Positions 7,362 to 63,346 of a stretch of DNA of 64,000 nt are shown here, in pieces (position 1 is the stretch's first letter; each line of letters starts with the position of its first letter). Source of the DNA: the human T2T-CHM13v2.0 reference genome, Homo sapiens. The translations under genes were made by a program, and so were the position numbers. Under the pieces are notes generated by a model that was given only the letters and a program-made list of their open reading frames with translations, was not told the DNA's origin and did no database searches. The DNA lies in the NCBI RefSeq assembly GCF_009914755.1, contig NC_060930.1. One strand, written 5' to 3'.

Positions 7362-7368
7362 CAAAGAA

Positions 7369-7607: not shown

Positions 7608-7916
<309 letters not shown>

Positions 7917-8820: not shown

Positions 8821-8903
8821 TCTCATTGTTCAATTCCCACCTATAACTAACCTGCACATTGTGCACATGTACCCTAAAACTTAAAGTACAATTAAAAAAA
8901 AAA
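8821..8903 (+). mobile_element. Minimal L1PA insertion with 5' inversion (twin priming)
   Basis: Inverted 3'UTR piece 8821-8844, then sense L1PA 3' end and A tail; TSD aagaagcagtga at 8809-8820 and 8904-8915 at a TT/AAGA site. Confidence 0.9.
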
Positions 8904-9407: not shown

Positions 9408-9476
9408 CTATAATTTTAAAAAGAAGAAAACTCCCTATAATTTAAGTGTTTAATCCTATTAGTATATTTCAATTAC

Positions 9477-9616
9477 AGCATGTATGAACTCATTTGGAGA
9501 GGACATAAAAAATCTAAGCTTATGGTCTTTATGAGTATGAGACCCATGGTTAATGGGCCTTCTGGTAAAATTCCCTCTCCTCAGCCATACCCTGCAATAG
9601 CTCAGATGTCAGGGAC
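9477..9616 (-). pseudogene. Candidate fossil exon
   Basis: ttttgaatag|G SLTSELLQGMAEEREFYQKAH*... / HKDHKLRFFMSSPNEFIHA|gtaatt; phase fits the 14151-14185 exon. Confidence 0.45.
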
Positions 9617-11659
9617 CTATTCAAAACGTATTGGTTTTATAAAACTGATACATGCTTATCACAAAAAGGGCTACGGAAGAGTATATAGAAGAAAGTTAAA
9701 AAACAAAACCAACAAGCAAAACCCCCACTATCAACTACCCAGAAATAATTGTCATAACATTTGGCAACATCATCCTAGTTCCTAGTGATCTCTCTATGTA
9801 TGTACCCATATTCACACATAGACATAATTCTACAAAAATGGGACCTACTGTAAATGCTTTTTTTAAAAACAAAAAGCATTAAATTTGTCTTTACTTGAAC
9901 TAAACTGGAGAAAAGCTAGTGAAATTGGTAGAATTGCTCAATCTCAGATTAATAAGTTTCTTCACATCAAGCAATTTTATTTTCCTAGAAGATAACTCTA
10001 AAATTTCAAAAGATTTTTTTACTTAAAAAAAAAAAAACCCAATCACCAAAATGCTTCAATTCAAGCAGTATCTATGGATCTGCCTGCACTGAAGGTAAGC
10101 AACATGGCACCATCTTTCTAACCTACCCCTACAACACCATATTTCTGTTAAGTGTATTATTATTTTTTCATTATCAAGATTCATAAATTTACTCTGTCCT
10201 GTAGCCATAATTCTCAGCTTTGCTTTTTCTTTAAGCCATTGAATGTGTTTAATGACCAACCTTCCACTTCCGTGTTTTTAATTTTTCACTTAACAATTGG
10301 CTTGCTGGGTTTTGTTGTTGGATGGCTTTTTCAAAAATAATTCATGAGCACTAAATTTCATGAATTGCTGCTTATTTTAAAGTTTGTTTCCTGCCTTTAT
10401 GTTTCAAGCACAATTAGATGGACACAAAGTTACCCTTTCCTTTCCTCAGAACTTTGTAAGCAGAGCTCCATTGTCTTCTGGCATTGAATGCTGCTGCTGA
10501 GGTGTTGGAGGTCAGGCTCATCTGCACCTCCCTCACAGCCCTTACACTTAGAGGAGCTTTTCTTTTTCTACATGGATGTCCTTAAAGCTTTTAGTTTATT
10601 TCAAGATATGTGTAAGCATTAAATATTCTTTATCAGATTTTCCTGGGAAATTTTTTCTAGTGCTTTGTGTTCTCTTTTTGTTATTAAATCTTTAAGTACA
10701 TTTTCTTTCACTATTTGCTTTTTAAAATTTAAGAATACCCATTATTTTTATATTAGATCGCCTTTGTCTAGATTCCATATTAGTAGTCATCTGTCTAGTA
10801 ATTTTCATCTTTTTTCCATTTCATATTTTAATGTTTGCTCAAGGCTGTCTTTTATCAACTCAATGGTTTTTTGTCATACATATTTTACTTTTGATTACTT
10901 CTGTGGTCTTTAGCTATGAAAAGACTGATGAGCCTCCTGGACTGGCCTCTCAATACGGTGGATATTATCACCATGGGTTCATAGTTTTTGGCTTTGCTCA
11001 TTTTTTTTCTTCCTTAGATCAGCCTCCTTGCTCCATTTCTTGAATGAGTCAACTCATCTCTTACCTCTTCAACAGTGGCAGAAAATTTGGATAGATGTTT
11101 GTAATCCATTACTGATTTCTTGGAAACTTAAGGAATGGGAGAAGTTGCAAGATAGTAGATGAACTGGGGAAGAGAATTCCAAGAAGGAACAGCATGTGAC
11201 GGATACCTGGAGTAGAAAAAAAATAGTGGAGCTTTTGAGGCAATGAGAAAAGGATTATGTGGGTCAGGAAGCACAAGCTTGAAAGACAGCAGTGCTAGGT
11301 AAAGTGAGGGAGGCCAGATAATATAAAAGGCATTTTAGACTATGAAGTTTGGATTACATCCTTAGAGTACTGGGCTGGGGCAAGGTAGAGGAAGTGGTGG
11401 TTACTAAAGAACTTTAAACAAAAAAGGACAAACATTAATGTTTTTTAAAAAAATGATAGCTACGGTCGTAGGGTAGAATGAAGAATAGAAAGTAGAAGAT
11501 CAGTCAAGAAACCCTTAACACCTACTCACAGATGGTGGTTGGTTAGCAAAGGTGTTAAAAACAGGAGGAAGAAACATAGAACTTTTTTAAATGTAGGAAA
11601 CTGGATGTATTAAATATATGTTTGCATCCATACCAGTTTGACTTATTATAGAGAAAACA

Positions 11660-12100
11660 TGAAAGGAATTCAAATGTTTATCAATAGGTGAATTTAAACA
11701 AATTATGATATTTCCATGCAATGGAATACTACTCAGTCACAAAAGGAATGAACTAATAATATACAAAACATAGATGAATCTGAAAATAATTATGGTAAGT
11801 GAAAGAAGAATGAAAAGAAGAGTTTATACTGTAAGATTCTATTTATATAAAATTCTAGAAAATACACACTAAGCTGTCATGATGGAAAGCATATCAGTGG
11901 CTAGTTTGGGGAGTAGGGAGAGGTGGGCCAGAGGGATTACAAAGGAGCATTAGGAAACTTTCGGGGATGATGGAGATGTTTATTATCTTGATTATGGTGG
12001 TAGTTTTGAATGTATACTTGTGTCAAAGCTTATCAAATAATGTACTACAATTATGTACAGTTTATTTCAGTTATACATGAATAAAGCTGTTTTACTATTA
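11660..12100 (+). mobile_element. L1M (MC/ME-like) 3' end
   Basis: 'atggaatactactcag...aaattatggtaagtgaaagaag...atcttgattatggtgg...aataaagctg'. Confidence 0.75.
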
Positions 12101-12329
12101 AAATGTAATTTTGAGGTAGTTTAATAGCATTTAGTGAAGAGAACGAGGGATAGGAAGACAAAAAAGATTATTATAAGGTTTCTGGAATGAGATAATTTCT
12201 GTGAAGATATTTAAAGCCCTGGCAATGGATGAGACCACCAAGAGTAGGAATGGAAGAAGGTCTAGGACTGAGTGTGGAGGACAGCTGATATTTACAAGCT
12301 GTGTGGAGAAGGAGCAGAGGTCTTACTTC

Positions 12330-13200
12330 TTTGTGGGGTGTGCCATTGTTGATTTATCTCTTATTGAGAGAGATCATGTTTATTGCTAATATTTTTCATT
12401 TCTGAGCTGCAACGAATAACCTTATACATTTTGGAAGTGTGTGTACATGTAATCTGTAAGATAAATTTTTAGATGTAGAATTTTCTGGATCAGAGGGTAG
12501 GAGTAGTTGTGATTTTGGTAAATAATGCTAAATTCCTCTTCATAGAAGTTGTACCTATTACATTCCCATCAGCAATATGAAAATGCCTCTTTCCCCACAA
12601 CCTCATCAGCACAGAAGATTATCAAATTTTTGACCTTTCCTAATTTCACAAGTGAAAATTGGTAGCTCAGTATTATTTTAATTTGCATTCTTTAGCTATG
12701 AGTGAGATTAAACATGTTTTATTGGTTAAGAGTCATTGGGAGGATTGTTGTACCTTTAAAAAAATTGAGTTATTGATTTTTTTTAACACGTTATACATGC
12801 TTTCTTTATATAAGGAAAAGTAGCCCTTTGCTTCCAATATATCTTGCATATATATTTTCCCAGTTTGCTGTTTGTCTTTGAAATTTGTTTATGGTAGCTT
12901 CGGCCTTGTAGAAATGGTTGATTTTCGTATTGTCAAATTTATAAATCTTTTTGTTTATGGTTCTTGAGTTTTGTGTCATAGAGAGGTTTTTCCAACTCTC
13001 AAAGAATTCTCTCGAGATTTCTTAGAACTGATTTATAATTTCATTATTTACTCTGAAATCTTTGATTCAATTGTATATTTTCCTGGTGCAAGTGGGAGGG
13101 GTTAAGACAATTTTAGTTTTATTTTTAGATGGCTACCTGGTTTCCCAAAATCATTTATAAAATAACTGTCTTCTCACCATTGACTGGAAGATTTCACCTT
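12330..13200 (-). mobile_element. Old L1M fragment
   Basis: Degenerate reverse ORF2 end ('ttacattcccatcagcaatatga', 'ttttaatttgcatt'). Confidence 0.65.
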
Positions 13201-13239
13201 TATCTTTGTTAAGTAAAAGAGAAGGCTTTATAAATGAGG

Positions 13240-13615
13240 GTTTTAGAATGTATTTGAATGCTGACACTTAATCCCAGTGCAACACTGTTGGGAGTTGCGG
13301 CCTTTGGGGTATTTAGGTCATAAGGGCTCCACCTTCATGAATGGATTAATGTTGTTATAAAAGCCCTTTATGAAGGAGTTTGGTCCTCTGTCCCTTCTGT
13401 CTTCTGCCATGTGAGGACACAGTGTTTCTCTTCTTTGGATGACACAGTGTTCAAAATGCCATTGTGGAAGCCAAGAGCAGCCCTCACCAGATGCTGGTGC
13501 CTTGATCTTGGACTTCTCAGCCTTCAGAATGGTAAGAAATAGATTTCTGTTCTTTATAAGTTCTGTTCTTTATAGGTCTGTGCTATTATACTAGCACAAA
13601 ATGGACTAAGACAAT
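13240..13615 (+). mobile_element. MaLR LTR (MST/MLT1A-like)
   Basis: 'gggctccaccttcatgaatggattaatg...ccttgatcttggacttc...aaatggactaagaca'. Confidence 0.85.
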
Positions 13616-13711
13616 GAACATGTATGCAGATATGTTTAAATTTCATGGTGGAAAGAAAGATGACTTCTATTTTCCTGTTGTAGTAGAGGGTGTTGATGGA
13701 TACAAGGCAGC

Positions 13712-14070
13712 AAAGTCCATTTCTGCTATAACAAAACACCATAGACTGATGGCGTAAACAATCAATATTTGTTGCTCACAGTTCAGAAGGCTGGAAGTGC
13801 AAGATCAAGCTGTCAGCAGATTTGGTGTCTGGTGAGAACCTGCTTCCTTGTTCATAGACAGCTGTCTGCTTCCTGTGTCTTCACCTGGCAGGAGGGTTAA
13901 GGGAACTCGCGGGAGCCTCTTTCATAAGGGCATGAATCTCATTCTTGAGGGCTCCACACTTACGACCTAATCACCCCCTAAAGTCCCCATCTCTTAATTC
14001 TATCACCCGGGGGGTCAGGATCTCAGCATTCAAATTTAAGTTGGGGGACACGAACATTCAGATCATGGCA
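13712..14070 (-). mobile_element. MaLR LTR (MLT1A/MST-like)
   Basis: 'gctataacaaaacaccatagactg...ctcacagttc...ggctggaagtgcaagatcaag'. Confidence 0.85.
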
Positions 14071-14150
14071 TAAACCAACCGTTCTAATTGCATTATTTTC
14101 TCTAGAAATGATCGGCTGCCTCTGTGTGGGCAAAGAAAAGGCCTATCTAC

Positions 14151-14185
14151 CTTGGAAACAAAGCTTTGGAAAACTCATTGCTGGT
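14151..14185 (-). pseudogene. Candidate fossil micro-exon
   Basis: gtctgtttctttag|TSNEFSKALFP AG|gtagat, 35 nt. Confidence 0.45.
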
Positions 14186-14206
14186 CTAAAGAAACAGACA
14201 ATTGAG

Positions 14207-14526
14207 GCCAGGCGCTGTGGCTCATGCCTATGCTCCCAGCACTTTGGGGAGCCGAGGTGAGAGGATCTCTTGAGCCCAGGAGTTCAAGACCAGCTTGGGT
14301 AACATAGTGAGACCCCACGTCTACCAAAAAAACATTAATAAATTAGCCAGGCATGGTGGCTTGTGTCTGTGGTCACAGCTACTCAGGAGGCTGAGGTGGG
14401 AGGACTGCTTGAGCCTGGGAGGTCGAGGATACTGTGAACCATGATCGCACCACTGTGCTCCACCCTAGTCAACAGAGCAAAGCCCCATTTAAAACAAAAA
14501 AAGGAAAAAGAAAAGAAAAAGAAAAA
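14207..14526 (+). mobile_element. AluJ
   Basis: Full dimer with J-type 'gaggatctcttgagcccagg' and A-rich tail. Confidence 0.95.
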
Positions 14527-14712
14527 ATGAAATACACAATTGGACAGTAAAAGAGCCTCTAAAGGGGAAGCAAACAAGAGGTTAATAGGGCATTGATGAC
14601 TAAGAACCCATTTTGCAATATTCTCTGGAGCTGGCCTTGCATTTAGAATGAATGTGAACCTGAAACTCTTCAGGATTCAGGGCAGGGGATGGCATATGAT
14701 CTATTTGCCTAC

Positions 14713-14940
14713 ACTTTGCTTCAGCTGACAGCAGCCGGCAGGTCATGATCCCTGTTTTCTCCCATGATTTGTTGTCTCAGCTGCCAGATGACAGTGCTAT
14801 TGGGCTGCTCCTAACTATGATCACTCCTTAGCCTGTCCTCGGGTAGCTCTTGCTTCCAGATTTTATTAACCCACACATCCCAGCTGGGTTTCTGGAAACC
14901 CCCACCCACCCACCCTGTGAACTGCTGACGTTGCTGATGA
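14713..14940 (-). pseudogene. Candidate fossil exon (3' boundary uncertain)
   Basis: gctctcactgcccacag| HQQRQQFTGWVGGGFQKPSWDVWVNKIWKQELPEDRLRSDHS*EQPNSTVIWQLRQQIMGENRD. Confidence 0.5.
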
Positions 14941-16236
14941 CTGTGGGCAGTGAGAGCAGCAAGTGGGAAACAATCTTATGAAAGAGAGAAGAATGTGAGT
15001 CAGCTGGATAGATGGTATTATGTGAAAGAAAGAAGATGCATTGGGAAAGTAGGATAAGCCTCATTCTTTTAATAAATACTCATCAAAAGCTGATTACAGA
15101 ATAGTACTGGATTATAAGATTGAAGTTCCTCCTAAGCCTTTCCCATAAAGATAGGAAGCATGATTTCATCTTTCATTTCATCTTTGAAGATATTGGTTAC
15201 TGGTCTTCATATGAGCTAAGTGCTCATTAAATGGTTGCTGAATGGATTAATAAAGGAGGGACTATTTTAGTGTCTTTGCTTGTGCCATTCTCTCCCTGGA
15301 ACACTTTCCCTTTTCTAATATAACTCCAGAAATTCCACTTTCGTCTGAAGGCTCCCCCCTCCTCCATGAAGCCTTATGTGACTAACTTCTGCCTAAAGTT
15401 AGCTTCCCCTTTCTAAAGTCTATGGTACAGATAGTTGAATCTATGTCAATAACACATTCTGTCCAATATTTTGCTTCCATATTCCTCTCTCCCACTGTGG
15501 ATCTTTTTAATGCTGTGTAGATACAGAAATATACATTCTTACTCTCCAACAAGTGTGTGCATTTCCTAAATGCAGGGACGACATCTTTGACTTCTTTCCG
15601 AATGTCCATGGTTCCTGATAGCGTACTGGGCACAAAGTACTGCCCTCGAAGTACTTATTTATTTGACTACCTATTATCTCTATCTAAAGCAAATATTGTT
15701 AGAAAAAGGCTGAGGCTTATTGTTAACCCATACAGGACAGAGAATTGTAATGATCTTTCTTCCTAATCCTTAGCTTAATCCTCCTAATCCTGTAGCTTAA
15801 ACCCTGAAAATGTTTGCATCCTTGATCTATAAGGAATGTTATAGCATGTGACTCTATTAAGTGTGGAAAATTGAAAGGCAAATTAAAATATTTTTATTTG
15901 GCAGCATCATGAAACTGTTGAGGTCTATAGACATAATCTTCATATGAATGCTAAACGTAGTACTTACTATCAATAGATGTTCAAGTCCAATGTTACTGAG
16001 CTGTGACTGTAGCAATTCGCTAATCTTCCTTTGAACATACACTATTTACTTTTTAAAGTCTAAGTTAAAAAATCAATTTTTTTCTCTCTAGTGAATTTTA
16101 TGATGCTTTTGTTTTATATTATTCAACCTAAAACTTCTGAGATTTTTAAAAGGCTAACAGCAGGTTGTGAATGTTCAAATAGACAAAATTACAAAGTACA
16201 CATTCATTACTGACTTAGCTCAGCTTCCTGAGATAA

Positions 16237-39140: not shown

Positions 39141-40674
39141 CTGAGGAGAGCTCAGAAGAGATGATATTTCACTTAGCATCGTTTATCAAGTGTAGAAAAT
39201 GATTTCAATAGTTGTGTTAAGGGTGGAAATGGGCCTTATAATCAATATAAGATGAGCTGCTTTCTGCCACTCTTTTGAATAACTGTAATCAAAACTGACA
39301 AAAAACAGGTTAGGCTTTTAATATCTCTCAATTATATGAGGAGGAACTGGGATGACTTGAACACTGCAATTAAGTCTCTGAGGCCAAAGGTCTGTGGTGA
39401 AAACAGGCATAATTTTACAGTCCTTTCTATTGGACAATGAACTCAGCATTTCATCCTCACAGTACCTAAGAGTGTCATAGCCTACATTTGCACCTGAACT
39501 AGTAATGGAATATGTGAAAATTTGCCTGGCACATAGCTATTGCTTAATCAACAGTAGCGAGCAGTATGTGTGTGTGTGTGTTTGGTGGGGGGAGTGAAGA
39601 TTTCTCTCTCAAACATATGAGCAGAAACTCAATAAAGAATTAATTTTCATGGGAAATAGAAAAGGTTCCACCCAGCATACTTTGAAGAGCTATTATTATT
39701 CATTCATCTTTAGTGCACAAGAGAAAAAGAGCAAAGTGGGGCAGGTAAGGGGAGATAAGAGATCTGTTTAGGTTTACTGCCTTAAGTAAAACGTAAGTCT
39801 ATTGCACAGTATTTCTATCAGGTTAGCCTTAACAGGCCTTTCATACATTGCCTTCACATAGCACTAAAGCTGGTTAGGAACAAAACTGTTCTCCAGGATT
39901 TCATGCACCTGAATCATTGCCTTTCCTACCACCCTCGTACTTAGTCTCTTTCAGAAATCTTACTCTTTGTCTCATCATTTTTCCCCACTTTGAGTTAGAT
40001 GTGGATTCACATCCTGACTCTACCTATCCATGTGACCTGAGTGAACCCCAGTGTCATCAGCTGGAACATGGGAACAATACAATACCTACCTTCTAAAGTT
40101 AATGTGAGGATGAAATGAGATAATGCATGAACAAGAAGTGCATTACAAGGGGCTCCTTAAATGGTTCTTTCATTTCCTCTCTGGCTCTACCTACTTCTCT
40201 TCCTTTCTAGCATCGGTTAGGTCATCCTTCTGTAGAGACCGTGGGCAAAGAGACAAAGGCATCGGGCCTCCTGGATGCCTCCTCCATCCCAGCCTGGCTC
40301 CCTATTTGTCTAAGAGAAGGAAACCAAGCCAAGGCACAAAGGCACAGAAGCAAGCATTGGCTGGGCACCTGAAGTTGGTCATATAGAGGAGAAAAGATTT
40401 TCAGCTTCCCCTTAAGGCCTACCCTAATGTAGCGTTAACCTAAGCCTTTAAATGTACCTCCCATCATCCCCACCATGTACCTTGACAATTTTCTGACCCA
40501 GGAACAGATATCTACCCCATTCCACTCTACCTCTCTCTCTGGCCCCACACTGTGCTTTTGCTATTGTGATTTCCTCTGCATAGAGCTCTGTTTACTCACT
40601 TCTCCTTTGAAAGTGCACAACTTGGTGAAACACACCTTTCCTGAGAAGCCTGTCTGCCCATTTATCAACCCTTC

Positions 40675-42910
40675 TTACACTGCCACAAGTCAAGGAATGC
40701 CAAGGATTGCCAGCAACCACCAGAAACTAGAAGGAGCAAGGAAGAATTTTTCCATAGAGCATTCAGCAGGAGCATGGCCCTGCTAACACCTTGATTTTGG
40801 ACTTCTAACTGCTGGAACTGTGAGAGAATAAATTTCTGTTGCTTTAGGCTACCCAGCTTATTATATTATATTTCATTACAGCAGATCCAGGAAACTAACA
40901 CAACCAGGAAAAGCTGAAACTTATTGATTACTGGCTTAAACAGTCCTCTTCCTATTTCAAAGTCTATTCACCTTTTGGGATACCAGTTACAAACTTACCT
41001 ATTTCTCTTACTCTGAGCCCCCAGTGGATTGGCAAGTCAGAAGTTATTGAAGGAAGGTAGAGCAAGATGGTTGGATAGGAGCTGCCACCAATTGTCCTCC
41101 CCACAGGAATACCAAATTGAACACATATCCACATAAAAAGCACCTTCATAAGAACCAAAATTCAGATGAGAGATTGCAGTACTTTCAAATTCATTTTACA
41201 ATGTTAATATTTCCCTGATACCAAAACCAGACAAACACACTGAAAAAAAAAAGCAACCTATAGGTCAATATCCCTAATGAACATTAATGCAAAAACCCTC
41301 AACCAAATACTAGCAAACCAAATTCAAATATACATTAAAAAGATAATTCATCATGACCAAGTGGGATTTATTCCAGAAATACAAGGATGTTTCAACATAT
41401 GCAAATTAATCAATGTGATATATATCCTATCATTAGAATGAAGGACAAAAATGATCATTTCAATTGATGCTGAAAAAACATTTGATAAAATTCAACATCC
41501 TTTCATAATAAAAACCCTCAGAAAACTAGGTATTCAAGGAACATACTACAACACAGTAAGAGCCATATATGACAGACCCACAGCTAATATCATGCTGAAC
41601 GGGGAAAAACTTACAGCCTTTCCTTTAAGACCTGAAATATGACAAGGATGCTCATTTTCACCACCGTTATTCAACATAGTACTGGAAGTCCTAGCTGGAG
41701 TAATCAGACTAGAGAAAGAAATAAAGGTATCCAAATTGGAAAGGAAAAAGGCAAATTATCCTTCTTTGCAGGTGATAGGATCTCATATTTGGGAAAACCT
41801 AAAAACTCCACGCAAAAACTGTTAGAACTGATAAACAAATTCAGTAAGGTTGGAGGATACAAAATCAACATACATAAATCAGTAGCATGTCTATATGCCA
41901 ACAGTAAACAATCTGAAAAAGAAATCAAGAAAGTAATCTTATTTATAGTAGCTACAAATAATATAAAATACCTAGGGATAAACTTAACAAAAGAAGTCAA
42001 AGATCTCTGCAATGAAAACTATAAAACACTGATGCAAGAAACTGAAGAAGACACAAAAAATGAAAAGATATTTGGTGTTCATGGCTTGGAAGAATCAGTA
42101 TTGTTAAAATGTCCATGCAAGGGCTGGGCATGGTGGCTCATGCCTGTAATACCAGCATTTTGGGAGGCCTAGGTAGGAGGATCGCTTGAGGCCAAGAGTT
42201 TGAGGCCAGCCTGGCCAACATGCGAAAACTCTGTCTCTACTATAAAAAAGTACAAAATTAGCCAGGCATGGTGGCACATGCCTATAGTCTCCAGCTACTC
42301 AGGAGACTAAGCCATGAGAATTTCTTGAATCCCGAAGGCGGGGGTTGCAGTGAGCTGAGATTGCTGCTCCACTGCACTCCAGCCTGGGTGACAGAGCAAG
42401 ACTCTGTTTAAATAAAATAAAAATAAAAATAAAATGTCCATACTACCCAAAGCAACCTACACATTCAGTATAACCTCTATCAAAATACTAATGACATTCT
42501 TCACAGGAATAGAAAAAAAAATCCTAAAATTGATATAGAACCACAAAAGACCCCAAATAGCCAAAGCTATCCTGAGCAAAAAGAATGAAACTGGAGGAAT
42601 CACATTACCTGACTTCAAATTACACTACAGAGATATAGTAACCAAAGCAGCATGGTACAGGCATATAAACAGACATATAGGATGACTACAGTCAACAATA
42701 ATTTATTGCACATTTAAAAATCACTAGAAGAATATTATTAGATTGTTTGTAACACAAAGAAAGGATAAATGCATAGGGTGATGGATACTCTACTTGCCCT
42801 GATATGATTATTATGCATTGTATGCCTATATCAAAATATCTTATACATTCCATAAATATATACACCTACTATGAACCCACAAAAATTAAAAGTTGAAAAA
42901 TGAAAAAAAA
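40675..42910 (+). mobile_element. Composite L1MA copy: MLT1 part + unique flank + L1 5' end (40675-41182), ORF2 segment (41183-42680), L1 3' end and A tail
   Basis: 40675-41182 is a diverged reverse complement of 56765-57270; ORF2 motifs ([33 protein letters not shown]); 3' end resembles 48810-49025. Confidence 0.85.
42122..42430 (+). mobile_element. Alu inserted in L1 ORF2
   Basis: Dimer; flanking repeat aaaatgtccat. Confidence 0.9.
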
Positions 42911-43992
42911 AACCTTTCTCTTGTTTTTCTAAAACTCTAACTGGATACCCTGCATTTTTCTTTGCTAAATTTGGTAACCCTAATTGGGAAATATGTTGCA
43001 AAAGGCAAAGATGGGGAAATACACTATATTCATTTGAAGTATGCTGGGGGGGTAGACTATGAAAGTGAATGCAATTTTTTGACACTCTCCTGAGAGAACT
43101 GCCACAACTTTCATTACTAGTATTCACTTCTTCCACCATGGGATTGTCACTCATTAGAGACATGTAGTTGCTGTGCCCCTTAAGGAAGCCCCTTATGGCT
43201 GAAAGCAGGTGGTTCCAAAGCCTGTCCTACACTTGCTTCTCCCTCACATCTTATGAGCCAGACCACTAGATCCCACAGAAGAAAAGGATCAGGGAGGTAA
43301 TTTTTCTACAGAAAAGCACTGGATTCGCATAAGTGATATATCAAGCTTCTAATGTCCTTTTTATCTTTTATTTGAATAATCATTTGTATAACTTTCCCAT
43401 CTGTGTGTACATTTTAAACAAATGAAGCAGCTTCCTCTCACTAACATGTTTTCTCTTCCTTAAAATGACATCCTCTTCTAATTTACTCAACCCTAAAAAC
43501 CCCCTCTTCAAATACATTTTCTCTGTTGGTTTCATGCATCTCAGAGAAAGGAAAAAAGGGTTCATTTTAGTAAATAAGCCCTGGCTTTAAAAATGCTCTT
43601 ACCATTTCACACTCCAGAAAATAAGGAGATGAACACACACACACACACACACACAAACTAATTAGAATTAACTAAATTTTATAATATATTAAGTAATAAA
43701 ATTACAATGCAAAACCATTGCAGCGTCCTTTTGATTGCTCTGAACTCCACCCCTCCCTGTCAAACAATAGAAAGGGGAAAGTGCTTTAAACTCTCACTAG
43801 GGTGGGGCTGCTGCCTGCCGCCTGCTCTCCGAACTGTCTTGCAGCTGGAGAAGAGCAGCCAAAGCTCCTGCAGACTTCATGTTGGAACTTCACACATTCA
43901 TTCCAACAAAGAACACAGCACGTAGCAGGAGAACATACTGCGCTTATTCTTCTTAGTATAAGGGCAGATAACCTCTCTATTTTTATCTTTAC

Positions 43993-48696: not shown

Positions 48697-48765
48697 ATCT
48701 AGAGCAATAGAAGGGTCTGGTAGCTGGCTAGATTATTTGGGGAATTCAGGAGATGTCAATCATTT

Positions 48766-51700
48766 TTTTTAAAAAAAGCTTATGTTTAATGTTTTAAAAA
48801 CTTATTTTTAATTTTTAATTTTTGTGGGTACATAGTAGGTGTATATATTTATGTGGTACACAGAATATTTTGATACAGGTATATAATGTGTAATGACCAC
48901 ATCAGGGTGTATGAGGTATCCATTACCCCACGCATTTATCCTTTCTTTGCATTATAAACAATCCAATTATACTCTTTTAGTTATTTTTAAATGTGCAATA
49001 AATTACTGTTGACTGTAGTCATCCTGTTGTGCTATCACATACTAGATCTTACTCATTCGATCTAACTATATTTTTGTACCCATTAACCATCCCTATTTCC
49101 ACCACTGCCCCTCCATTCCCAGCCTCTGGTAACCAGCCTTCTACTCTATCTCTGTGAGTTCAATTGTTTTAATTTTTAGTTCCCACAAATAAGCAAGAAC
49201 ATGTGAAGTTTGTCTTTCTGTGCTTGGTTTATTCTTAACATAATGTCTTCCAGTTCCACCCATGTTGTTGCAAATGACTGGATCTCATTCTTTTTTATGG
49301 CTGATAAGTACTCCATTGTGTACAAGTACCACATTTTCTTTATCCATTCATCTGTTGATGGACACTTAGGTTGTTTCAAGTCTTAGCTATTGTGAATAGT
49401 GCTGCAACAAACATGGGAGTGCAGATATCTCTTGGACATAGTGATTTTCTTTCTTTTGAGTATATATCTAGCCATGGAGTTACTGGATTATCTGGTAGCT
49501 CTATTTTTAGATTTTTTTTTGAGGAACCTCCAAACTCTTCTCCATAGTGGTTGTACTAACTTACATTTCCACCAACAGTGCATGAAGGTGGCCTTTTTTC
49601 CACGTGTTCTCCAGCATTCATTATTGTCTGTCTTTTGAATAAAAGTCATTCTTACTGGGGTGAGCTAATATCTCATTGTAGTTTTCATTTGCATTGCTCT
49701 GATGACCAATGATGTTGAGCACCTTTTCATATGCCTGTTTGCCATTTGTATGTCTTCTTTTGAAAAATGTCTATTCAGATCTTTTTCCCATTTTTAAATT
49801 GGATTATTAGATTTTTTTTCCCTATTGAGTTGTTTGAGTTCATTATAAGACTGGTTATTAATCCCTGGTCAGATGGATAGTTTGCAAATATTTTCACCCA
49901 TTCTGTGGGTTGTCTCTTCACTTTGTTGATTGTTTCCTTTGCTGTGCAGAAGGTTTTAAACTTGATGTGATCCCAATGGTCCATTTTTGCTTTGATTGCC
50001 TGTGCTTGTGGGGTATTACTCAAGAAATCTTTGCCCAGATTAATGTCCTGGAGAGTTTCCCCAATGTTTTCTTGTAGTAGTTTCATAGTTTGAGGTCTTA
50101 GGTTTAAGTCATTAATTCATTTTGATTTGATTTTTGTATGTAGTAAGAGATAGGGATCTAGTTTCATTCTTCTGCATATGGATATCCAGTTTTCCTAGCA
50201 GCATTTATTGAAGAGACTGTCCTTTGAGCAAACTGTGTTCCTGTGACTTTTGTCAAAAATGAGTTTACTCTAGGTGTATGGATTTGTTTCTGGGTTCTCC
50301 ACTCTGTTTCATTGGTCTGTTGGTCTGTTTTTATGCCAGTACCATGCGTTTTGGTTACTATATCTCTGTACTATAATTTGAAGTCAGGTAATGTGAGTCC
50401 TCTAGCTTTGTTCTTTTTGCTCAGGATAGCTTTGGCTATTCTGGGTCTTTTGGGGTTCCATGTCAATTTTAGGATTTTTTTTCTATTTCTGTGAAGAATA
50501 TCATTGGTATTTTGATAGGGATTGCATTGAATCTGTAGATTGCATTGGCTAGGATGGACATTTTAACGTTGATTTTTCCAGTTTTTTATGTCCTCTTCAA
50601 TTTCTTGAATCAATGTTTTATAGTTTCCATTGTAGAGATCTTTTAGTTCTTTGGTTAAGTTTATTCCTACCTATTTTATATTATTTGTAGCTACTGTAAA
50701 TAAGATTATTTTCGTGATTTCCCTTTCAGAATGTTTGCTGTTGACATGTAGAAATACTACTGATTGGCTGGGCTCAGTGGCTCACCCTGTAATCCCAGAA
50801 CTTTGGGAGGCCAAGGTGGGAGGGTCATTTGAGACCAAGCGTTCGAGATCAGCCTGGCTAACATGGCAAAACCCTGTCTCTACAAAAAATACAAAAATTA
50901 GCCAGGCGTGGTTGTGCACACCTGTAATCCTAACTACTCAGGAGGCTGGCACATGAGAATAGCTTGAACCCATGAGGTGGAGGTTGCAGTAAGCTGAGAT
51001 CACACCACTGCACTCCAGCCTGGGTGACAGAGTGAGACTCCTTTTCAAAAAAAAAAATCTACTGATTTATGCATGTTGATTTTGTATCCTGCAACTTCAC
51101 TGAATTTGTTTACCAATTCTAATATACTTTTTATGGAATCTTTAGTTTTTTTGAAATATAAGATCATATCGTCTGCAAACAAGGATAATTTGACTTCTTC
51201 CTTTCCAATTTGGATGACCTTTTATTTCATTCTTTTGTTTGATTGCTTTAGCTAGGACTTCCAGTACTATGTTGAATAACAGTGGTGAAAGTAAGCATCC
51301 TTATCTTGTTCCAGATCTCAGAGGAAAGGCATTCAGTTTTTTTGTGTTTAGTATGATAATAATTGTGGGTCTGTCATATATAGCTTTTACTGTGTTGTGG
51401 TATGTTCCATGAACACCCAGTTTTTTAGTGATTTTTTTTTTAATCATGAAGGGATGTTGAATTTTATCAAATGCTTTTTTAGTATCAGTTGAAATGATCA
51501 TGTGGTTTTTGTCCTTCATTCTATTGGTATGATGTATCACATTGATTGATTTGTGCATGTTGAGCCATCCTTGCATCTCTGGGATAAATCCCACTTGGCC
51601 ATGATAAATGATGTTTTTAATCTGTTGTTGAATTTGGTTTGCTAGTATTTGGTTGAGGATTTTTGCATTAATGTTCATCAGGGAAATTGGACTTTAGTTT

Positions 51701-54700
51701 GATTTTTTGTGTGTCTTTGGTTTTAGTATCAGGGTAATACTGGCCTCATAGAATGAGTTAGGAAGTTTTCCCTTCTCTCCTATTTTTTGGAGTAGTTTCA
51801 GTAGGATTGACATTAGTTGTTCTTTAAATATTTGGTACAACTCAGCAGTGAAGCCATCAGGTCCTGGGCTTTTCTTTACTGGAGATTTTTCTTGTTTCAG
51901 TTTTGATCTCATTACTTTTTATTGGTCTGTGCAGGTTTTGGATTTCTTCATTGTTCAATCTTGGTAGGTTTTTTATGTCTAGGAATTTATCCATTTCTTC
52001 TAGATTTTCCAATGTACTGGCTTATAGTTGTTCCTAATAGCCTCTGATAATCTTTTGAAGTTCTACAGTATCAGTTATAATGTATCCTTTTTCATCTTCA
52101 GTATTATTTATTTGGGTATTCTCTCTTTCTTTCTTAGTATGGCTAAAGCTTTGTCTATTTTGTTTATCTTTTCAAAAACCCAACTTTTCATTTCATTGAT
52201 TTTTGTATTGTTTTCTTTGTTTAAATTTCATTTATTTCTGCTCTGATCTTTATTATTTCTTTTCTTCTACTGATTTTGGGTTTGGTTTACTCTGGCTTTC
52301 ATAGTTCTTTAAGATGCATTGTTAGTTTGTTTATGTGAAGTTCTTCTACTTTTTTTGATATAGATGCTTATAGCTGTACACTTTCCTCTTAGTACTGCTT
52401 TCACTGTATCCCATAGGTTCTGTTAGGTTGTGTTTCCATGTTCATTTGTTTCAAGAAATTTTTAAATTTCCTTCTTCATTTCTTCATTGACTCACTGATC
52501 ATTCAGGAGCACATTGTTTAATTTTCATGGTTTTTTTTTGTAGTTTCCAAATTTCTCTTGTTATTGATTTCTAGTTTTATTTCACTGTGGTCAGAGATGA
52601 TATTTGATATAATTTCATTTTTTTGAATCTTTAAAGACTTCTTTTGTGGCCTATCATAAGGTCTATTCTTGAGAATGATCCATGGGCTGAAGAGAAGAAT
52701 GCATATTCTGCAGCTATTGCATAAAATGTTCTGTAAATATCTATTAGGTTCATTTGGTCTGTAGCGCAGGTTAAGTCCAATGTTTCTTTGTCAATTTTCT
52801 GTCTGGATGATGTGTCCAATGCTGAAAGTAGGGTGTTGAAGTGTCCTGGTATCATTGTATTGGGGTCTATGTCTCTCTTTAGCTTTAATATTTGCTTTGT
52901 ATATCTGGGTGCTCCAGTGTGGGTGCACACATATTTACAACATATATTTGCAGCTCATTATATAACGTTAAAAGGTTCAAGTCAGCAAGAGGATATAAAC
53001 ATAGACCCCAATACAATGATAAGGGGACATTTCATATTTATAAGTGTATATCATATCTTCATATTTATAATTATAATATAGATATATATTTATATTATAT
53101 TTACATATAAATATATCCTGTTCATATGTTTATATCCTCTTGCTGACTTGAGCCCTTTATCATTATATAATGACATTCTTTGCCTCTTTTTATAGTTTTG
53201 TCTTGAATTCTATTTTATCTGATATAGGTATAGCTATTTCTGCTCTTTTGTTGGTTTCCATCTGAATGAAATATCTGTTTCCATTCCTCAATTTTCAGTT
53301 TCTGTGTGTCTTTATAGGTAAAGTGTGTTTCTTGTAGGCCACAGATCATTGGCTCTTGTTTTTGTTGTTGTTGTTGTTTGTTTGTTTTAAATCCATTCAG
53401 CCACTCTGTGATTGGAGAGTTTAGTCCATTTACATTAAATGGTATTATTGATCAGTAAGGACTTGCTCTTGCCATTTTGCTATTTGTTTTCCGGTTGTTT
53501 TGTGGTCTTCTCTTCCTTCTTTCCTTCCTTCCTGTCTTCCTTTCCAGTCAAGGTGACCTTCTCTGTTGGTATGTTTTAATTTCTTGCTATTTATTTTTTG
53601 TGTATCTGTTGTATGATTTTTGATTTGAGGTTACCGTGAGACTTGCAAATAATATAATCCATTATTTTAAACCGGTAACAACTTAGCACTGATTGTGTAA
53701 ACAAAATAACAAGCAAGCAAAGAAAACTAATACACAAGCAAAGAGAAACAAGCAGAGAAACAAACGAGCAAAGAGAAAACTAACGAATGCTCTACATTTT
53801 AACTGCATCCCCCCGCTTTTTAACTTTCTGTTGATTTATGTCTTATTATACTCTCTGTGTCTCAAATAGTTGTTGTAGTCACTATTTTTTATTGGTTCAT
53901 CTTTTAGTCTTTCTACTCAAGATCTGAGGAGTTTACACACCACAGCTACAGTGTTACAATATTCTGTGTTTTTCTGTGTGCTTACTATTACCAGTGAGTT
54001 TTGTACCTTCAAATGATTTCTTGTTGCTCATTAATTTTATATTCTTTCAAATTGAATAACTCTCTTTAGCATTTTTTGTAGGACAGGTCTGGAGTTAATG
54101 AAATCCCTCAGCTTTTGTTTGTCTAAGAAAGTCTTTCTTTCTCCTTCGTGTTTGAAGGATACTGTCACTGGATATACTAGTCCAGGATAAAATTTCTTTT
54201 TCTTCAGCACTTGAAATACATCACGCTACTCTCTCCTGGCCTGTAAGGTTTCTGCTGAGAAGTCTGCTGTCAGATATATTAGAGCTTTATTGTAGGTTAT
54301 TTGTTTCTTTTCTCTTGTTGCTTGCAGATCCTTTCTTTATCCTCAACCTTTGGGAGATTGACTATTAAATGTCTTGAGGCAGTCTAATTTGTTTTAATTC
54401 TGCTTGCTATTCTATAACATTCTTGTACCTGAATAGGGATATCTTTCTCTAGGTTTGGGAAGTTCTCTGTTATTATTCCCTTTGAATAAACTTTCTACCC
54501 CTATCTCTCTCTCTACTTCTTCTTTAAGGCCAATCACGGTTAGATTTGCCCTTTTCAGATTATTTTCTAGATCATGTAGATGTGCTTCATTCTTTTTTAT
54601 TCATTTTCTTTTGTCTCCTCTGACTGTGTATTTTCAAATAGCCTATCTTCAAGCTCACTAATTCTTTCTTCTGCTTGATCAATTCTGCTGTTATCACCCT

Positions 54701-56895
54701 GATTCATTCTTTGGTATGTCAATCGCACTTTTCAACTCTAGAATTTTTGCTTGTTTCTTTTTTAAATATTTCACTCCTTTTGTTACATTTACGCGATAGG
54801 ATTCTAAATCCCTTCTCTGTGTTATCTTGAGTTTCAGTGAGTTTCTTCAAAACAGCTATTTTGAGTTCTCTATCTGAAAGGTCACATATCCCTATCTCTC
54901 TATGATTGGTCCCTGGTGCCTTATTTTGTTTGTTTGGTGAAATTATGTTTTTCTGGATGGTCTTGATGCTTGTTGATATTCATCAGTGTCTGGTCATTGA
55001 AGAGTTAGGTATTTACCATAGTCTTCACAGTCTGGGCTTGTTTGTACTTGTCCTTTTTAGGAAAGAGTTTCAGGTATTTGAAGGGACTTGGTGTTGTTAT
55101 CTAAGTTTTTGATCATTGCACCAGTATCTGCATTTGTGGGCCCCCCAAGCTCAGCAACGGTGTGTCTCTTGTAGACTCACAGAGGCACCACCTAGGTGGT
55201 CTTGGATAAGATCCATAAGAATCCCCTGGATTATGAGGCAGATAAATTTTTGTTCTCTTCCTTTACTTTCTCCCCAACGAACAGCATCTCTCTCTCTCTC
55301 TCTCATTCTCTGCAAAGCTGCCTGTTCTGGGGGGAGGCCTGACACAAACACCTCTGAGGCCACCATCACTGGCACTGCTCTGTGTTAGACTTAGAACTAG
55401 CACAGCAATGGGTCTTGCGGAAGGTCCGCAGTAACCACTGTCTGGCTACCGCCTATGTTTGCTCAAAGGCCCAAGGGCTCTACAATCAGCAGATGATTAA
55501 GCCAGTCAGGCTTGTGTCTTTCTGTTCAGGGTTATGAGTTCCCCAGTCCTGGGTGGGTCCATAGATGCTGTTTGGGAGCCAGGAACTGGAGTTAGAAGCC
55601 ATAGAAATCTAACTGGTACTCTCTTCCACTGCAGCTGAGCTGGCACCCAAGCAGGAAAACAAAGTTCTTCTCACTCTTCTCTCCCTTTTCCACAACCAGA
55701 GCAGTCTCCCTCCATGGCCACTACCACCCCAGGCTTGTGGCGAGTACTGCCTGGCTACCACCGATGTTCACTCAAGGCCCAAGGAGTCCTCAGTCAGTTT
55801 GTCGTGAGTGCTTCCAGGCCTGGGACTCTCTTTTCAGGGAAGTGGGCTTTCCTCTGCCCCAGGGCAGGTCTAGAAATGTCATCCAAGAGCCAAGGCCTGG
55901 AATCAGGGACACCAAAAGTCCACTTGATCCTCTACCCCACTGTAGCTGATGTGGTACCTAGGCTGCAAGACAAAATCCCCTTTACTTTTATCTCTCCTTT
56001 TCTCAAGCAGAAGCAGTCCCTCATAATCACCACACCTGGGAATGTGCCAAGTCTCATCTGAAGTAAGCGCAGCTCTGAGTCTCACCCAACGCTCATGGTG
56101 AGTACTGCCTGGGTACTGTTGCTGACTATTCAGCACCCAAGGGCTCTTTGTTCAGCAGGTGATAAATCTTGCCAGGACTAGCTGCTTCCCTTCAAGGCAA
56201 TAGGATCCCTTCTTGCCCAAGCTGTATCTAGAAATGTCTGGGTACTAGGGCCTGGAATGGGAGCCTCAGGACTCTGCCTAGTACTCTATACTGCTGTGGT
56301 TGAGTTGGTATGCAAGTTGCAAGACAAAGTCCTATTTAGTCTTCCTTCTCTTCTTAAGCAGAAGGAAGGAGTCTCTTCTGAAGCTGTGAGCTGCTCTGCC
56401 CGGGGTTCAGAGAGGGGCAGCTCAAGCACTCCCTTGGATACCCTGGCTGGTGTCTCACTACGTTACATGCTCCGCAAATCCACTGGCTCTGAGCCTATCA
56501 TAGCACCTTGACTTGCCCAGGAATTGCAGTTCTTGTGGCCTAGGCTGTTTTTCAGGTTTATTTAGAACCCCAGAGCATTTTAACTCACAGCATCAAGGCT
56601 TGCTGGAACTCAGGTTTCGACTGCTAGGATGGCTGATTCTCCTCTGGCTAAGGCTAGTCTAGATGCTCCCTCCATGGGCACTGGCTGAGTTCTGCCTGGT
56701 GTTGCTTTCTGCTGTGACAGGGCAGCACTGGGTGCCTCTTTCAGTTATACGAAGTTCAACCCAGGTACTGTAATCTCTCACCTAAATTTTGGTTCTTATG
56801 AAGGTGTTTTTATGTGGATATGTGTTCAATTTGGTGTCCCTGTGGAGAGGACAATTGGTGGCAGCTTCTATCCAGCCATCTTGCTCTACCTCCCT
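48766..56895 (-). mobile_element. Full-length degenerate L1MA (L1MA2/3-like)
   Basis: 5'UTR start at ~56894, repetitive 5'UTR 55.4-56.7 kb, ORF1 and ORF2 remnants (EN, RT: [27 protein letters not shown]), 3'UTR; TSD tcaatcattt at 48756-48765 and 56896-56905. Confidence 0.92.
50766..51057 (+). mobile_element. Alu inserted in L1
   Basis: Dimer; flanking repeat ctactgatt. Confidence 0.9.
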
Positions 56896-57042
56896 TCAAT
56901 CATTTCTGAGTGACCAATCAACTGGGGGCTCAGAATAGGAGAAATAGGTAAGTCTGTAATTAGTATCCCAAACGGTGAATAGACTTTAAATAGGAAGAGG
57001 ACTGTTTAAGTCAGTAATCAATAAGTTTCAGCTTTTCCTGAT

Positions 57043-57510
57043 TGTGTTAGTTTCCTGGATTGGCTGTAATGAAGTATAATATAATAAGCTGGGCAATTTA
57101 AAACAACAGAAATTTATTCTCTCACAGTGCCAGCAGCTAGAAGTCCAAAATCAAGGTGTCAGCAGGGCCATGCTCCCTCTGAAGGCTCTATGGAAAAATT
57201 ATTTCTTGCTTCTTCTAGTTTCTGGTGGTTGCTGGCAATCCTTGGCGTTCCTGGATTTGCAGCAGTGTAACTCCAATCTCTGCCTCCATCTTCACACGGC
57301 CTTTGTCCCTGTGTGTCTGTGTGTCTCCAAATATCTCTTTTTATAAGGACATTGATCAGTGGATTTAGGGCCCACCATGATCCAATAAGACCTCATCTTG
57401 ACTTGATTACATCTGCAAAAGCCTTTTTCCAAATAAGGTCAAGTTCACAGGTACTGGGGGTTAGGACTTCAACATGTCTTTTGTGGGGATACAATTCAAC
57501 CAACAACACT
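57043..57510 (-). mobile_element. MLT1B/C-like MaLR LTR upstream of and co-oriented with the L1
   Basis: 'tgtgttagtttcctgg...aacaacagaaatttattctctcacag...ttataaggacattg'. Confidence 0.85.
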
Positions 57511-57729
57511 GATTGACATTAATGGTGTGCCAAGAGGATTGGTGAAGGTGGCAGCAAGGAGACACACTGTCTGTGGAAAATTTAAAAGCAATAATAAAAC
57601 CAACTGAAAAATCAGTCTTTGTTATTAACACCATGCTCCCAGAATTCTAAACAATATTGACAGTCAAATACTCCTATCAGGGCCCTCCCACCTGGCCTGT
57701 ACAGGGATGTTTGTGTTTGTACACCATTT

Positions 57730-58122
57730 ACATGAGTTTTCTAGAGCTGCCATAACAAAGCACCACAGATTGGGTGGCTTAAACAATAGAAATTTATTTG
57801 CTCACAATTCTGGAGACAAGGAACCCTAGATCAAAGTGTCAGCTGGATTGGTTTCTCCCAAGGCCTCTCTCCTTGGCTTGTAGATGGCCATCTTCTCCCT
57901 GTGGTTTCACATAATCTTTCTTCTCTGTGAGTCTGTGTTCAAATTTCTTATTCTTATAAAGACACCAATCATGTTGTATTAGGGCCCACTCTGATGGCCT
58001 CATTTTTAACTTAGTTACCACTTTAAATTCCTTATCTCCAAAGAAAGTCACATTCTGAGATACTGGGAGTTAAGAGAGTTCAAAAATGAATTTTGAGGGA
58101 GACACAGTTCAGTCCATAACAT
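57730..58122 (-). mobile_element. MLT1A/B-like MaLR LTR
   Basis: 'gctgccataacaaagcaccacagattgggtggcttaaacaatagaaattt'. Confidence 0.85.
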
Positions 58123-60419: not shown

Positions 60420-61135
60420 TTTTATTTTGTTAACCTTTATTTTCAGTCCAGGGGTACACGTGCAGGTTTGTTACTTAGGTAAATTGTGTGTCACAGGGGT
60501 TTGGTGTACAGAGTATTTTGCCACCTAGGTAATAAGCATAGTACCTGATAGGCAGGTAGCTTCTCAATCCTCACCCTCCTCCCACCCTTCACCCTCAAGT
60601 AGGTGCTGGTGTCTGTTGTTTACTTCTTTATGTCCTTGTGTACTCAATGCTTAGCTTCCACTTATAAGTGAGAAGATGTGGTGTTTGGTTTTCTGTTTCT
60701 GCACTAGTTTGCTCAGGATAATGGCCCCCAACTCCATCCCTGTTGCTGCAGAGGACATGATCTTGTTCTTTTCCATGGCTGTGTGGTATTCCATAATGTA
60801 TATGTACCATATTTTCTTCATCCAACCTACCATTGATGGGCATTTAGGTTGGTTCCATGTCTTTGCTATTGTAAATAGTGCTGCAATGAACATACACACG
60901 CACGTGTCTTTATCCTAGAATGATTTTTATTCCTTTGTGTATATACCCAATAATGGGATTGCTGGGTTGAATGGTAGTTCTAAATTCTTTGAGAATCACC
61001 AAGCTGCCTTCCACAAGGCTGAACTAATTTACTTTCCCATCAGCAGTGTGTAAGAATTCCCTTTTCTCCACAACCTTGGCAGCATCTGTTGTTTTTTGAC
61101 TTTTTAATGACAGCCATTCTGACTGGTGTGAAATG
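60420..61135 (-). mobile_element. Older L1PA (PA13-16-like) 3' end
   Basis: 'gggtacacgtgcaggtttgttac'; reverse ORF2 end CMFIAALFTIAKTWNQPKCPS. Confidence 0.85.
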
Positions 61136-62153: not shown

Positions 62154-63346
62154 TTTTTTTTACTATACTTTAAGTTCTGGGGTACATGTGCAGAACGTGC
62201 AGGTTTGTTACATAGGTATACACGTGCCATGGTAGTTTGCTGCACCCATCAACCCATCACCTACATTAGGTATTTCTCCTAATACTATCCCTCCCCTGGT
62301 CCGCCCAACCCCTGACAGGCCCCAGTGTGTGATGTTCCCCTCCCTGTGTCCATGTATTCTCATTGTTCAGCTCCCACTTATGAGTGAGAACATGTGGTGT
62401 TTGGTTTTCTGTTCTTGTGTTAGTTTGCTGAGAATGATGGTTTCCAGCTTTATCCATGTCCCTGCAAAGGACATGAACTCATCCTTTTTATGGTTGCATA
62501 GTATTCCATGGTGTATATGTGCCACATCTTCTTTATCCAGTCTATCGTTGATGGGCATTTGGGTTTGTTCCATGTCTTTGCTATTGTGAATAGTGCCGCA
62601 ATAAACATGTGTGCATGTGTCTTTATAGTAGAATGATTTATAATCCTTGGGGTATATACCCAGTAATGGGATCGCTGGGTCAAATGGTATTTCTCGTTCT
62701 AGATCCTTGAGGAATCGCCACACTGTCTTCCACATGGTTGAACTAATTTACACCCCCACCAACAGTGTAAAAGCAGTCCTATTTCTCCATATCCTCTCCA
62801 GCATCTGTGGTGTCCTGACTTTAATGATCACCATTCTAACTGGCGTGAGATGGTATCTCATTGTGGTTTTGATTTGCATTTCTCTAATGACCAGTGATGA
62901 TGAGCTTTTTTTCATATGTTCGTTGGCTGCATAAATGTCTTCTTTTGAGAAGTGTCTGTTCATATCCTTTGCACACTTTTTGATGGGGTTTTTTTCTTGT
63001 AAATTTGTTTCAGTTCTTTGTAGATTCTAGATACTAGCCCTTTGTCAAGTGAGTAGGTTGCAAAAATTTTCTCCCATTCTGTAGGTTGCCTGTTCACTGT
63101 GATGATAGTTTCTTTTGCTGTGCAGAAGCTCTTTAGTTTAATTAGATCTCATTTATCAATTTTGGCTTTTGTTGCCGTTGCTTTTGGTGTTTTAGTCATG
63201 AAGTCTTTGCCCATGCCTATGTCCTGAATGGTATTGCCTAGGTTTTCTTCCAGGGTTTTTATGGTTTTAGGTCTTACATTTAAGTCTTTAATCTATCTTG
63301 AATTAATTTTTGTATAAAGTGTAAGGAAGGGGTCCAGTTTCAGTTT
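62154..63346 (-). mobile_element. 5'-truncated L1PA (PA7/8-like)
   Basis: ORF2 C-terminus (WKTVWRFLKDLE.EIPFDPAIPLLGIYP) plus 3'UTR; 19-bp TSD taagaagcagggagtcttt at 62138-62156 and 63347-63365. Confidence 0.95.

What the first reader, a model, noticed from the sequence alone, without database searches (positions are those of the whole stretch)
40675..42910. Local daughter of the neighbouring L1 carrying its upstream LTR and unique flank (candidate LTR-driven 5' transduction)
40675-41182 mirrors 56765-57270 (roughly 85-90% identical by eye) across MLT1 LTR, ~150 bp unique spacer, TSD copy and L1 5' end, so it derives from this specific locus. It then jumps to mid-ORF2 at a TAC microhomology and to the 3'UTR at ~42680, ending in an A tail. 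The copy starts ~70 bp downstream of a TATA-like motif in the co-oriented LTR (~57340). Hypothesis: an LTR-initiated L1 transcript was reverse-transcribed with template jumps and inserted about 6 kb away in opposite orientation. Alternative: DNA-level multi-switch duplication. The TSD is weak (aacccttct 40667 / aacctttct 42911).
Basis: partly seen in the sequence, partly recalled or inferred. Interest (0 to 1): 0.7.

Follow-up and report, generated by a model that had tools for sequence, protein, structure and literature searches.

The report
Two-age mosaic of neighbouring L1 copies
An old human L1 fragment carries a 508-base copy of its neighbour's front end and flanking DNA that is only about half as diverged as the rest of it, so it likely arose through later DNA exchange between two nearby copies and only mimics a 5' transduction.

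Summary
The anatomy is real. 40675-41182 is an inverted copy of 57270-56765 (LTR 3' half, unique spacer, TSD copy, L1 5' end), the spacer has two copies in the genome, and both internal jumps exist. It is not one event. The 508-bp piece differs from its source at 45 of 504 sites, the ORF2/3' body at 215 of 1349 (p=9e-5). Trees give stem/tips of 0.091/0.04 for the 5' end and 0.017/0.094 for ORF2, with similar total divergence, so the split times differ, not the rates. The body is still the neighbour's closest sampled relative (99/98 support), from an early split. The A tail sits in the middle of a ~190-bp MITE whose other half is absent from the window, so the proposed TSD is doubtful and the upstream flank is lost. 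No dispersed daughter was found. Best reading (0.5): two same-family L1 insertions 6 kb apart exchanged DNA by non-allelic gene conversion, and a late repair event copied the neighbour's 5' end and ran about 375 bp into unique flank. An early LTR-driven transduction needs a later conversion added (0.15). Known kind of process; interest 0.3.

The parts
40675..41182 (+). Late-copied 508-bp piece: inverted copy of 57270-56765
   Evidence: 45 mismatches of 504; mismatches spread evenly along it
40675..40901 (+). 3' half of the neighbour's upstream LTR (MLT1-type; name recalled, no repeat library on hand)
   Evidence: Tied best hit of the LTR query at 90%, other copies 74-79%; changes split about evenly between D and S
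40902..41040 (+). Copy of the unique spacer
   Evidence: 2 matches in the genome
41041..41050 (+). Copy of the neighbour's left TSD, 2 changes
   Evidence: Sequence
41051..41182 (+). L1 5' end copied from the neighbour; ends in the TAC overlap at 41180-41182
   Evidence: 92.9% to S versus 73-82% to 20 other copies; 9 rare shared against 9 private changes
41183..42115 (+). Old L1MA-type ORF2 piece (subfamily name recalled)
   Evidence: 83-85% to S, as for unrelated copies; sister to S in the tree
42122..42430 (+). Alu inserted in the body with its own short duplication; absent from S at this site
42430..42678 (+). Second ORF2 piece, ending at the AG overlap of a 1.3-kb internal deletion
42679..42910 (+). 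L1 3'UTR end and A tail
   Evidence: 82.4% to S; 20 of 40 same-family copies are closer
42906..42988 (-). Half of a ~190-bp palindromic MITE (MER3-like; name recalled), broken at its T-run by the A tail; other half missing
   Evidence: Profile positions 2-89 match at E=3e-15; no significant match for the other half in the window
40667..40675 (+).
   Evidence: 8 of 9; 1.5% of random flanks match as well; right copy lies in the MITE half
48770..56895 (-). Neighbouring full-length L1MA-type element S, with its own Alu at 50766-51057
   Evidence: 10-bp TSD identical at 56896-56905 and 48756-48765 (read)
57044..57490 (-). Whole LTR upstream of S, co-oriented; TATAAAA at 57345-57339

Best explanation
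The element is a two-age mosaic: an old L1 body plus a younger 508-bp copy of the neighbour's 5' end and flank, most likely made by DNA exchange between two nearby inverted L1 copies rather than by one transduction. Shown: two split times, local origin of the 508 bp, sisterhood of the ORF2 pieces, the A tail in a MITE T-run, and loss of the MITE's other half. Inferred: (1) D and S each inserted by ordinary target-primed reverse transcription, tail to tail, 5.9 kb apart; (2) while still nearly identical they were homogenised by non-allelic gene conversion, which left the short common stem of about 1.7%; (3) much later, after roughly two thirds of S's present divergence, a broken end in D's own 5'UTR invaded S, copied outward about 375 bp past the homology into spacer and LTR, and was end-joined at 40674, deleting D's upstream flank (one-sided invasion or MMBIR-like repair); (4) the 5-kb and 1.3-kb internal deletions formed at 3-bp and 2-bp microhomologies, the first at or after step 3. 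No function is proposed.
For: Mismatch 45/504 versus 215/1349, p=8.6e-5; non-CpG 41/498 versus 206/1334, p=4.2e-5. Shared:private rare variants 9:9 in the L1 5' end versus 18:219 in the body, p=1.1e-5. Stem/tips 0.091/0.043,0.033 versus 0.017/0.093,0.095; S's totals are 0.124 and 0.112, so rates are alike. Late-level sharing reaches 41175, 7 bp from junction 1. Relatedness is strictly local: spacer 2 copies; a 31-nt D/S haplotype pattern with up to 2 mismatches hits only D and S (about 46% detection per copy). Shared ORF2 changes are 12 non-synonymous to 3 synonymous, like neutral decay (D 55:12, S 65:9) and unlike family polymorphisms (23:23). Missing MITE half. Conversion between repeat copies is reported as elevated within about 10 kb for Alu (PMC6598467, PMC8230782; passages), and L1 breaks can be repaired by conversion from other L1s (PMC3924843, PMC7407515; passages citing Tremblay 2000).
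Against: Shared variants in the body are not significantly clustered (p=0.13 and 0.28) and there is no long identical run (p=0.62); plain early descent of D from S fits this at least as well as conversion. The candidate TSD beats 98.5% of random flanks. The copy starts 75 bp downstream of a TATA-like motif in a co-oriented LTR, unexplained here. That D once had its own 5'UTR is assumed, not seen. The reading needs about four events. No outgroup genome could be examined. The 10-kb conversion effect is cited for Alu, not tested for L1 here. The pattern was built from D and S, so their own match is by construction, and no positive control pattern was run.
Confidence: 0.5

Rival explanations
1. 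Early DNA-level multi-switch inverted duplication of S (primed at the MITE A-run on S's A tail, jumping at AG and TAC, ending in the LTR, deleting the left flank), followed by a later conversion that overwrote the 508-bp piece.
For: Explains locality, even low-level sharing in all four body segments (12, 2, 2, 3 rare shared; 7 versus 1.9 expected outside the first segment, p=0.003), neutral-type shared changes, microhomologies and the missing MITE half with two events.
Against: The late conversion must cover nearly the whole 508 bp, to within 7 bp of junction 1. D ends at the L1 3' end in a T-run with no 3' flank of S, the usual signature of retrotransposition. D and S are not sisters in the 3'UTR tree (low power).
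Confidence: 0.2
2. One reading: an early LTR-started transcript of S was retrotransposed 6 kb away as a 5' transduction, and the 508-bp piece was later homogenised by gene conversion.
For: ORF2 sisterhood 99/98; A tail in a T-run; 8/9 TSD-like match; co-oriented LTR with TATAAAA upstream; L1 sources with only 5' transductions exist (10.1101/2024.04.18.590093, passages).
Against: No dispersed daughter; a strong local-hopping bias is not known for L1 (own knowledge); S would already have carried many non-synonymous changes; a true TSD needs the MITE to have been cut within about 10 bp of the insertion site; described 5'-chimeric insertions are mostly near full length with clean 14-17-bp TSDs (10.1101/2025.02.02.635956, section 24). 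After discounting three CpG-like sites the left end shows no older remnant.
Confidence: 0.15
3. Late RNA-templated repair: a nascent LTR-started transcript of S, or its cDNA, served as template to patch a break at D's 5' part, which is why the patch ends near the LTR's start site.
For: Same two-age data as the best reading; patch end 75 bp from the TATA-like motif. Insertions with sequence templated near the site and two-RNA template switches occur in L1 assays (PMC11702581, passages).
Against: No RNA hallmark: no splice junction, no extra G at the 5' junction, start about 40-45 bp short of the expected start site; DNA templating needs fewer assumptions.
Confidence: 0.08
4. One event (RNA or DNA) made the whole element, and the 5' piece merely evolved more slowly.
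For: Colinear order of parts and sisterhood in ORF2.
Against: S's total divergence from the family is similar in both parts (0.124 versus 0.112) while its division into shared and private differs sharply; other copies' 5' ends are only about 80% alike; the difference holds without CpG sites.
Confidence: 0.03

Closest known systems
Non-allelic gene conversion between neighbouring repeats (Aleshin and Zhi 2010, seen only through PMC6598467 and PMC8230782)
   Same: Excess of shared non-diagnostic mutations between copies under about 10 kb apart; distorted ages
   Different: Described for Alu; here multi-kb inverted L1 copies, and the youngest tract includes about 375 bp of non-L1 flank
One-sided invasion / coupled homologous and non-homologous repair; L1-to-L1 conversion at a break (Belmaaza and Chartrand 1994, title seen in the references of PMC4888836; Tremblay 2000, seen through PMC3924843 and PMC7407515; mechanism details recalled)
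   Same: One end guided by homology, copying runs past the homology, other end joined without homology, with deletion
   Different: Experimental systems; here a fixed germline fossil whose homologous start has since been deleted
FoSTeS/MMBIR template switching (PMC4888836, section 13 passages)
   Same: Nearby template, inverted copy, 2-3-bp microhomologies
   Different: A single multi-switch event cannot give two split times
L1 5' transduction and 5'-chimeric L1 insertions (10.1101/2024.04.18.590093; 10.1101/2025.02.02.635956)
   Same: Upstream unique DNA joined in sense to an L1 5' end, A tail at the 3' end
   Different: Those are single events with clean TSDs, mostly near full length and dispersed; this one has two ages, a lost flank and no dispersed sibling

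Membership tests
L1 5' transduction | Upstream flank of a source element joined in sense to the L1 5' end | tested here: met
L1 5' transduction | Flank and L1 body inserted together (same divergence from the source) | tested here: not met
   8.9% versus 15.9%; trees
L1 5' transduction | One TSD around the whole insert at an endonuclease site | tested here: inconclusive
   8/9 match, 1.5% by chance, but the other MITE half is missing
L1 5' transduction | 5' end at an upstream transcription start | tested here: inconclusive
   75 bp downstream of TATAAAA; no expression data
L1 5' transduction | Empty site in an outgroup | not testable with these tools
   No other primate genome held (no relatives)
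Non-allelic gene conversion between neighbours | Excess shared non-diagnostic variants between nearby copies | tested here: met
   12 versus 3.0 expected, highest of 1431 pairs; 15, highest of 780 pairs
Non-allelic gene conversion between neighbours | Segments of one pair with different divergence | tested here: met
Non-allelic gene conversion between neighbours | Discrete tracts within the body | tested here: inconclusive
   Clustering p=0.13 and 0.28, low power
Non-allelic gene conversion between neighbours | Species-tree incongruence at orthologous sites | not testable with these tools
   Needs primate orthologues
One-sided invasion repair | Copied tract passes the end of homology and ends at a junction without homology | tested here: met
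   About 375 bp of non-L1 flank; 1-bp overlap at 40675
One-sided invasion repair | Homologous start point retained on the other side | tested here: inconclusive
   Tract ends at the TAC junction; any earlier 5'UTR of D is gone
L1MA1-3 subfamily | Diagnostic 3'UTR of a named subfamily | not testable with these tools
   No repeat library; D and S share the 3'UTR type of most of 40 top hits; the name is recalled

The most novel reading that the evidence does not exclude
An LTR-driven transcript of one L1 was captured locally, 6 kb from where it was made, either as an early 5' transduction later overwritten by conversion or as the RNA template of a later repair. This would mean that L1 reverse transcriptase or break repair can use a nascent neighbouring transcript in the germline.
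Probability: 0.2. Interest if true: 0.65.

Novelty: new member of a known kind. Interest (0 to 1): 0.3.

Why it matters
It is a natural fossil of exchange between neighbouring L1 copies that copied unique flank and so looks like a 5' transduction. It shows that flank barcodes used to assign L1 source and daughter, and divergence used to date copies, can mislead for close pairs. The two-clock test used here (shared versus private variants by segment) separates the cases. There is no sign of function: both copies are decayed and lie inside the GCLC-AS1 span (hub annotation).

Tried and rejected
Single late origin: rejected. Slow evolution of the 5' piece: rejected. Fully unrelated body: rejected by ORF2 sharing. 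An apparent 8 shared 3'UTR variants (13 controls mostly of another 3'UTR type) fell to 3 with 40 matched controls; 26 of 861 pairs share as many and D shares 6 with L108. Splicing at either junction: no GT-AG. Older remnant at the left end: 5 mismatches in 27 bp, p=0.076, three at CpG-like sites, so no support. A mutation cluster in the first 33 bp after junction 1: it is 4 mismatches from L016, so partly family variation. Alu as a clock: D's Alu has 12 private non-CpG changes of 223 (5.4%) versus 4.1% per lineage for the 508 bp, not decisive. Exchange between the two Alus: 2 rare shared states, not remarkable among 1275 pairs. Left flank search gave only itself, so flank continuity across the site was not tested. 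The automated TSD scorer returned 0 for S (likely badly placed windows); S's TSD is read. Literature: one search on the locus (listings only) showed no paper on it; the one held supplement of PMC11838501 has no chr6 or GCLC hit, but its tables were not held, so the locus may be listed there. Primary papers of Aleshin and Zhi, Tremblay, Gilbert 2005 and Khan 2006 were not held and were not read.

Full report
Terms. D is the element at 40675-42910 (+). S is the full-length L1 at 48770-56895 (-). Family names (L1MA, MLT1, MER3, L2) are recalled; no repeat library was available. Control copies are top-scoring hits from the own genome (40 scored of 3,352-15,173 candidates per search), so they lean towards similarity with the query. 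One divergent row, L048 (branch 0.25), was dropped.

1. Observation. The self-comparison of the window finds D in five pieces against S on the opposite strand: 40675-41182 at 90.7%, then ORF2 and 3' pieces at 80-88%. The first piece holds the 3' half of the LTR upstream of S, a unique spacer, a copy of S's left TSD and about 130 bp of L1 5' end. The spacer has 2 matches in the genome. S holds the whole LTR and an intact 10-bp TSD, so S is donor and D recipient. Junction 1 has a TAC overlap and junction 2 an AG overlap; neither is a splice junction.

2. Two clocks. The 508-bp piece differs from S at 45 of 504 sites, the body at 215 of 1349 (p=8.6e-5); without CpG-like sites 41 of 498 versus 206 of 1334 (p=4.2e-5). 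Against 20 other 5' ends, D and S are 92.9% alike but 73-82% to the others; they share 9 rare states and have 9 private ones, whereas in the body the ratio is 18 to 219 (p=1.1e-5). Trees give a stem of 0.091 with tips 0.043 and 0.033 for the 5' end and a stem of 0.017 with tips 0.093 and 0.095 for ORF2. S's total path is about the same in both (0.124, 0.112), so the rate is not the cause. The 508 bp last shared sequence with S after about two thirds of S's present divergence, the body after about 15%. Late-level sharing runs to 41175, 7 bp from junction 1, and mismatches are even along the piece.

3. Is the body related to S? By raw identity, no more than other copies: S ranks 31st of 39 for D's 3'UTR, D ranks 31st of 39 for S's ORF2 piece, and 20 of 40 3'UTRs are closer to D than S is. 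By shared derived states, yes: 12 rare shared sites against 3.0 expected in the first ORF2 piece, the highest of 1431 pairs (p=7.8e-5); 7 against 1.9 in the other three pieces (p=0.003); and D+S is the only starred clade of the 40-row ORF2 tree (99/98, bootstrap not fully settled). In the short 3'UTR tree they are not sisters. The shared ORF2 changes are 12 non-synonymous to 3 synonymous, like neutral decay. A 31-nt pattern holding five shared states matches only D and S genome-wide at up to 2 mismatches; with about 46% detection per copy a source lineage with more than about five other copies over this stretch is unlikely. The sharing is not significantly clustered, so these data cannot tell early descent from early homogenisation.

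4. Target site. D's right flank matches 6 other loci of a palindromic element of about 190 bp. A profile from five of them matches positions 2-89 at 42988-42906 and finds no other half in the 64 kb; the only other hit under E=1 is the palindromic self-match. D's A tail sits at the element's internal T-run, a typical L1 endonuclease site (own knowledge). A clean insertion would leave the other half directly before D's 5' end; what lies there looks L2-like (recalled). I count this evidence as neutral on the TSD and positive for a lost flank.

5. Mechanism. Shown: two split times, local donor, ORF2 sisterhood, lost flank, no dispersed sibling. Inferred best reading (0.5): two ordinary insertions of one family, tail to tail 5.9 kb apart, homogenised early by conversion; then a late break repair that began in D's 5'UTR, copied S outward about 375 bp past the homology and was end-joined at 40674; internal deletions at microhomologies. 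Homology guidance is inferred because a random nearby patch would seldom be the sister's 5' end in matching orientation. Rivals: early DNA-level duplication plus late conversion (0.2), early LTR-driven transduction plus late conversion (0.15), late RNA-templated patch (0.08), single event (0.03). The weights rest partly on my priors: chance neighbours of one family are common, while L1 has no known strong bias to land beside its source.

6. Comparison with what is known. Conversion between repeats is reported as raised within about 10 kb for Alu (PMC6598467 passages; PMC8230782 passages), and breaks in L1 can be repaired from other L1s (PMC3924843 and PMC7407515 passages). Microhomology template switching is reviewed in PMC4888836 (passages). 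L1 5' transductions exist, with one source giving only those (10.1101/2024.04.18.590093 passages). 5'-chimeric insertions are mostly near full length with TSDs, and multi-species alignment is the stated way to tell sequential from simultaneous parts (10.1101/2025.02.02.635956 sections 20 and 24); that paper places L1MA1-3 as primate-specific (passages). D fails the single-event criterion of a transduction and meets the sequence criteria of neighbour exchange. One search on the locus showed no paper on it (listings only); that preprint's supplementary tables could not be seen.

7. Verdict. New member of a known kind; interest 0.3. Primate orthologues would settle the order of events.

Noticed in passing
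window 56736 (minus strand): S lacks about 140 bp of 5'UTR present in other copies (gap at query position 165); outside the piece copied to D.
   Followed up: no
window ~50581 versus 42070-42098: S has lost about 25-29 bp of ORF2 that D retains.
   Followed up: partly
window 41183-41215: First 33 bp after junction 1 are unusually changed, yet only 4 mismatches from L016 and 6 from L005; family variation or a short patch from another copy.
   Followed up: partly
window 42122-42415 and 50766-51051: The Alus in D and S are both on the + strand, similarly old (12 private non-CpG changes of 223 each) and share 2 rare non-CpG states.
   Followed up: partly
window ~57720-58120: A second LTR copy of a related type, co-oriented, about 680 bp upstream of the first (family D15).
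   Followed up: no
window 56008-56097: An annotated GCLC-AS1 exon lies antisense inside S's 5'UTR (hub table).
   Followed up: no
L097 and L098: Near-identical L1 3' ends on contigs C24 and C23 form the one starred pair of the 3'UTR tree, likely a duplicated block; served as a positive control.
   Followed up: no
window 60609-61135 and 62325-62852: Another pair of nearby L1 fragments, direct, 77% alike.
   Followed up: no
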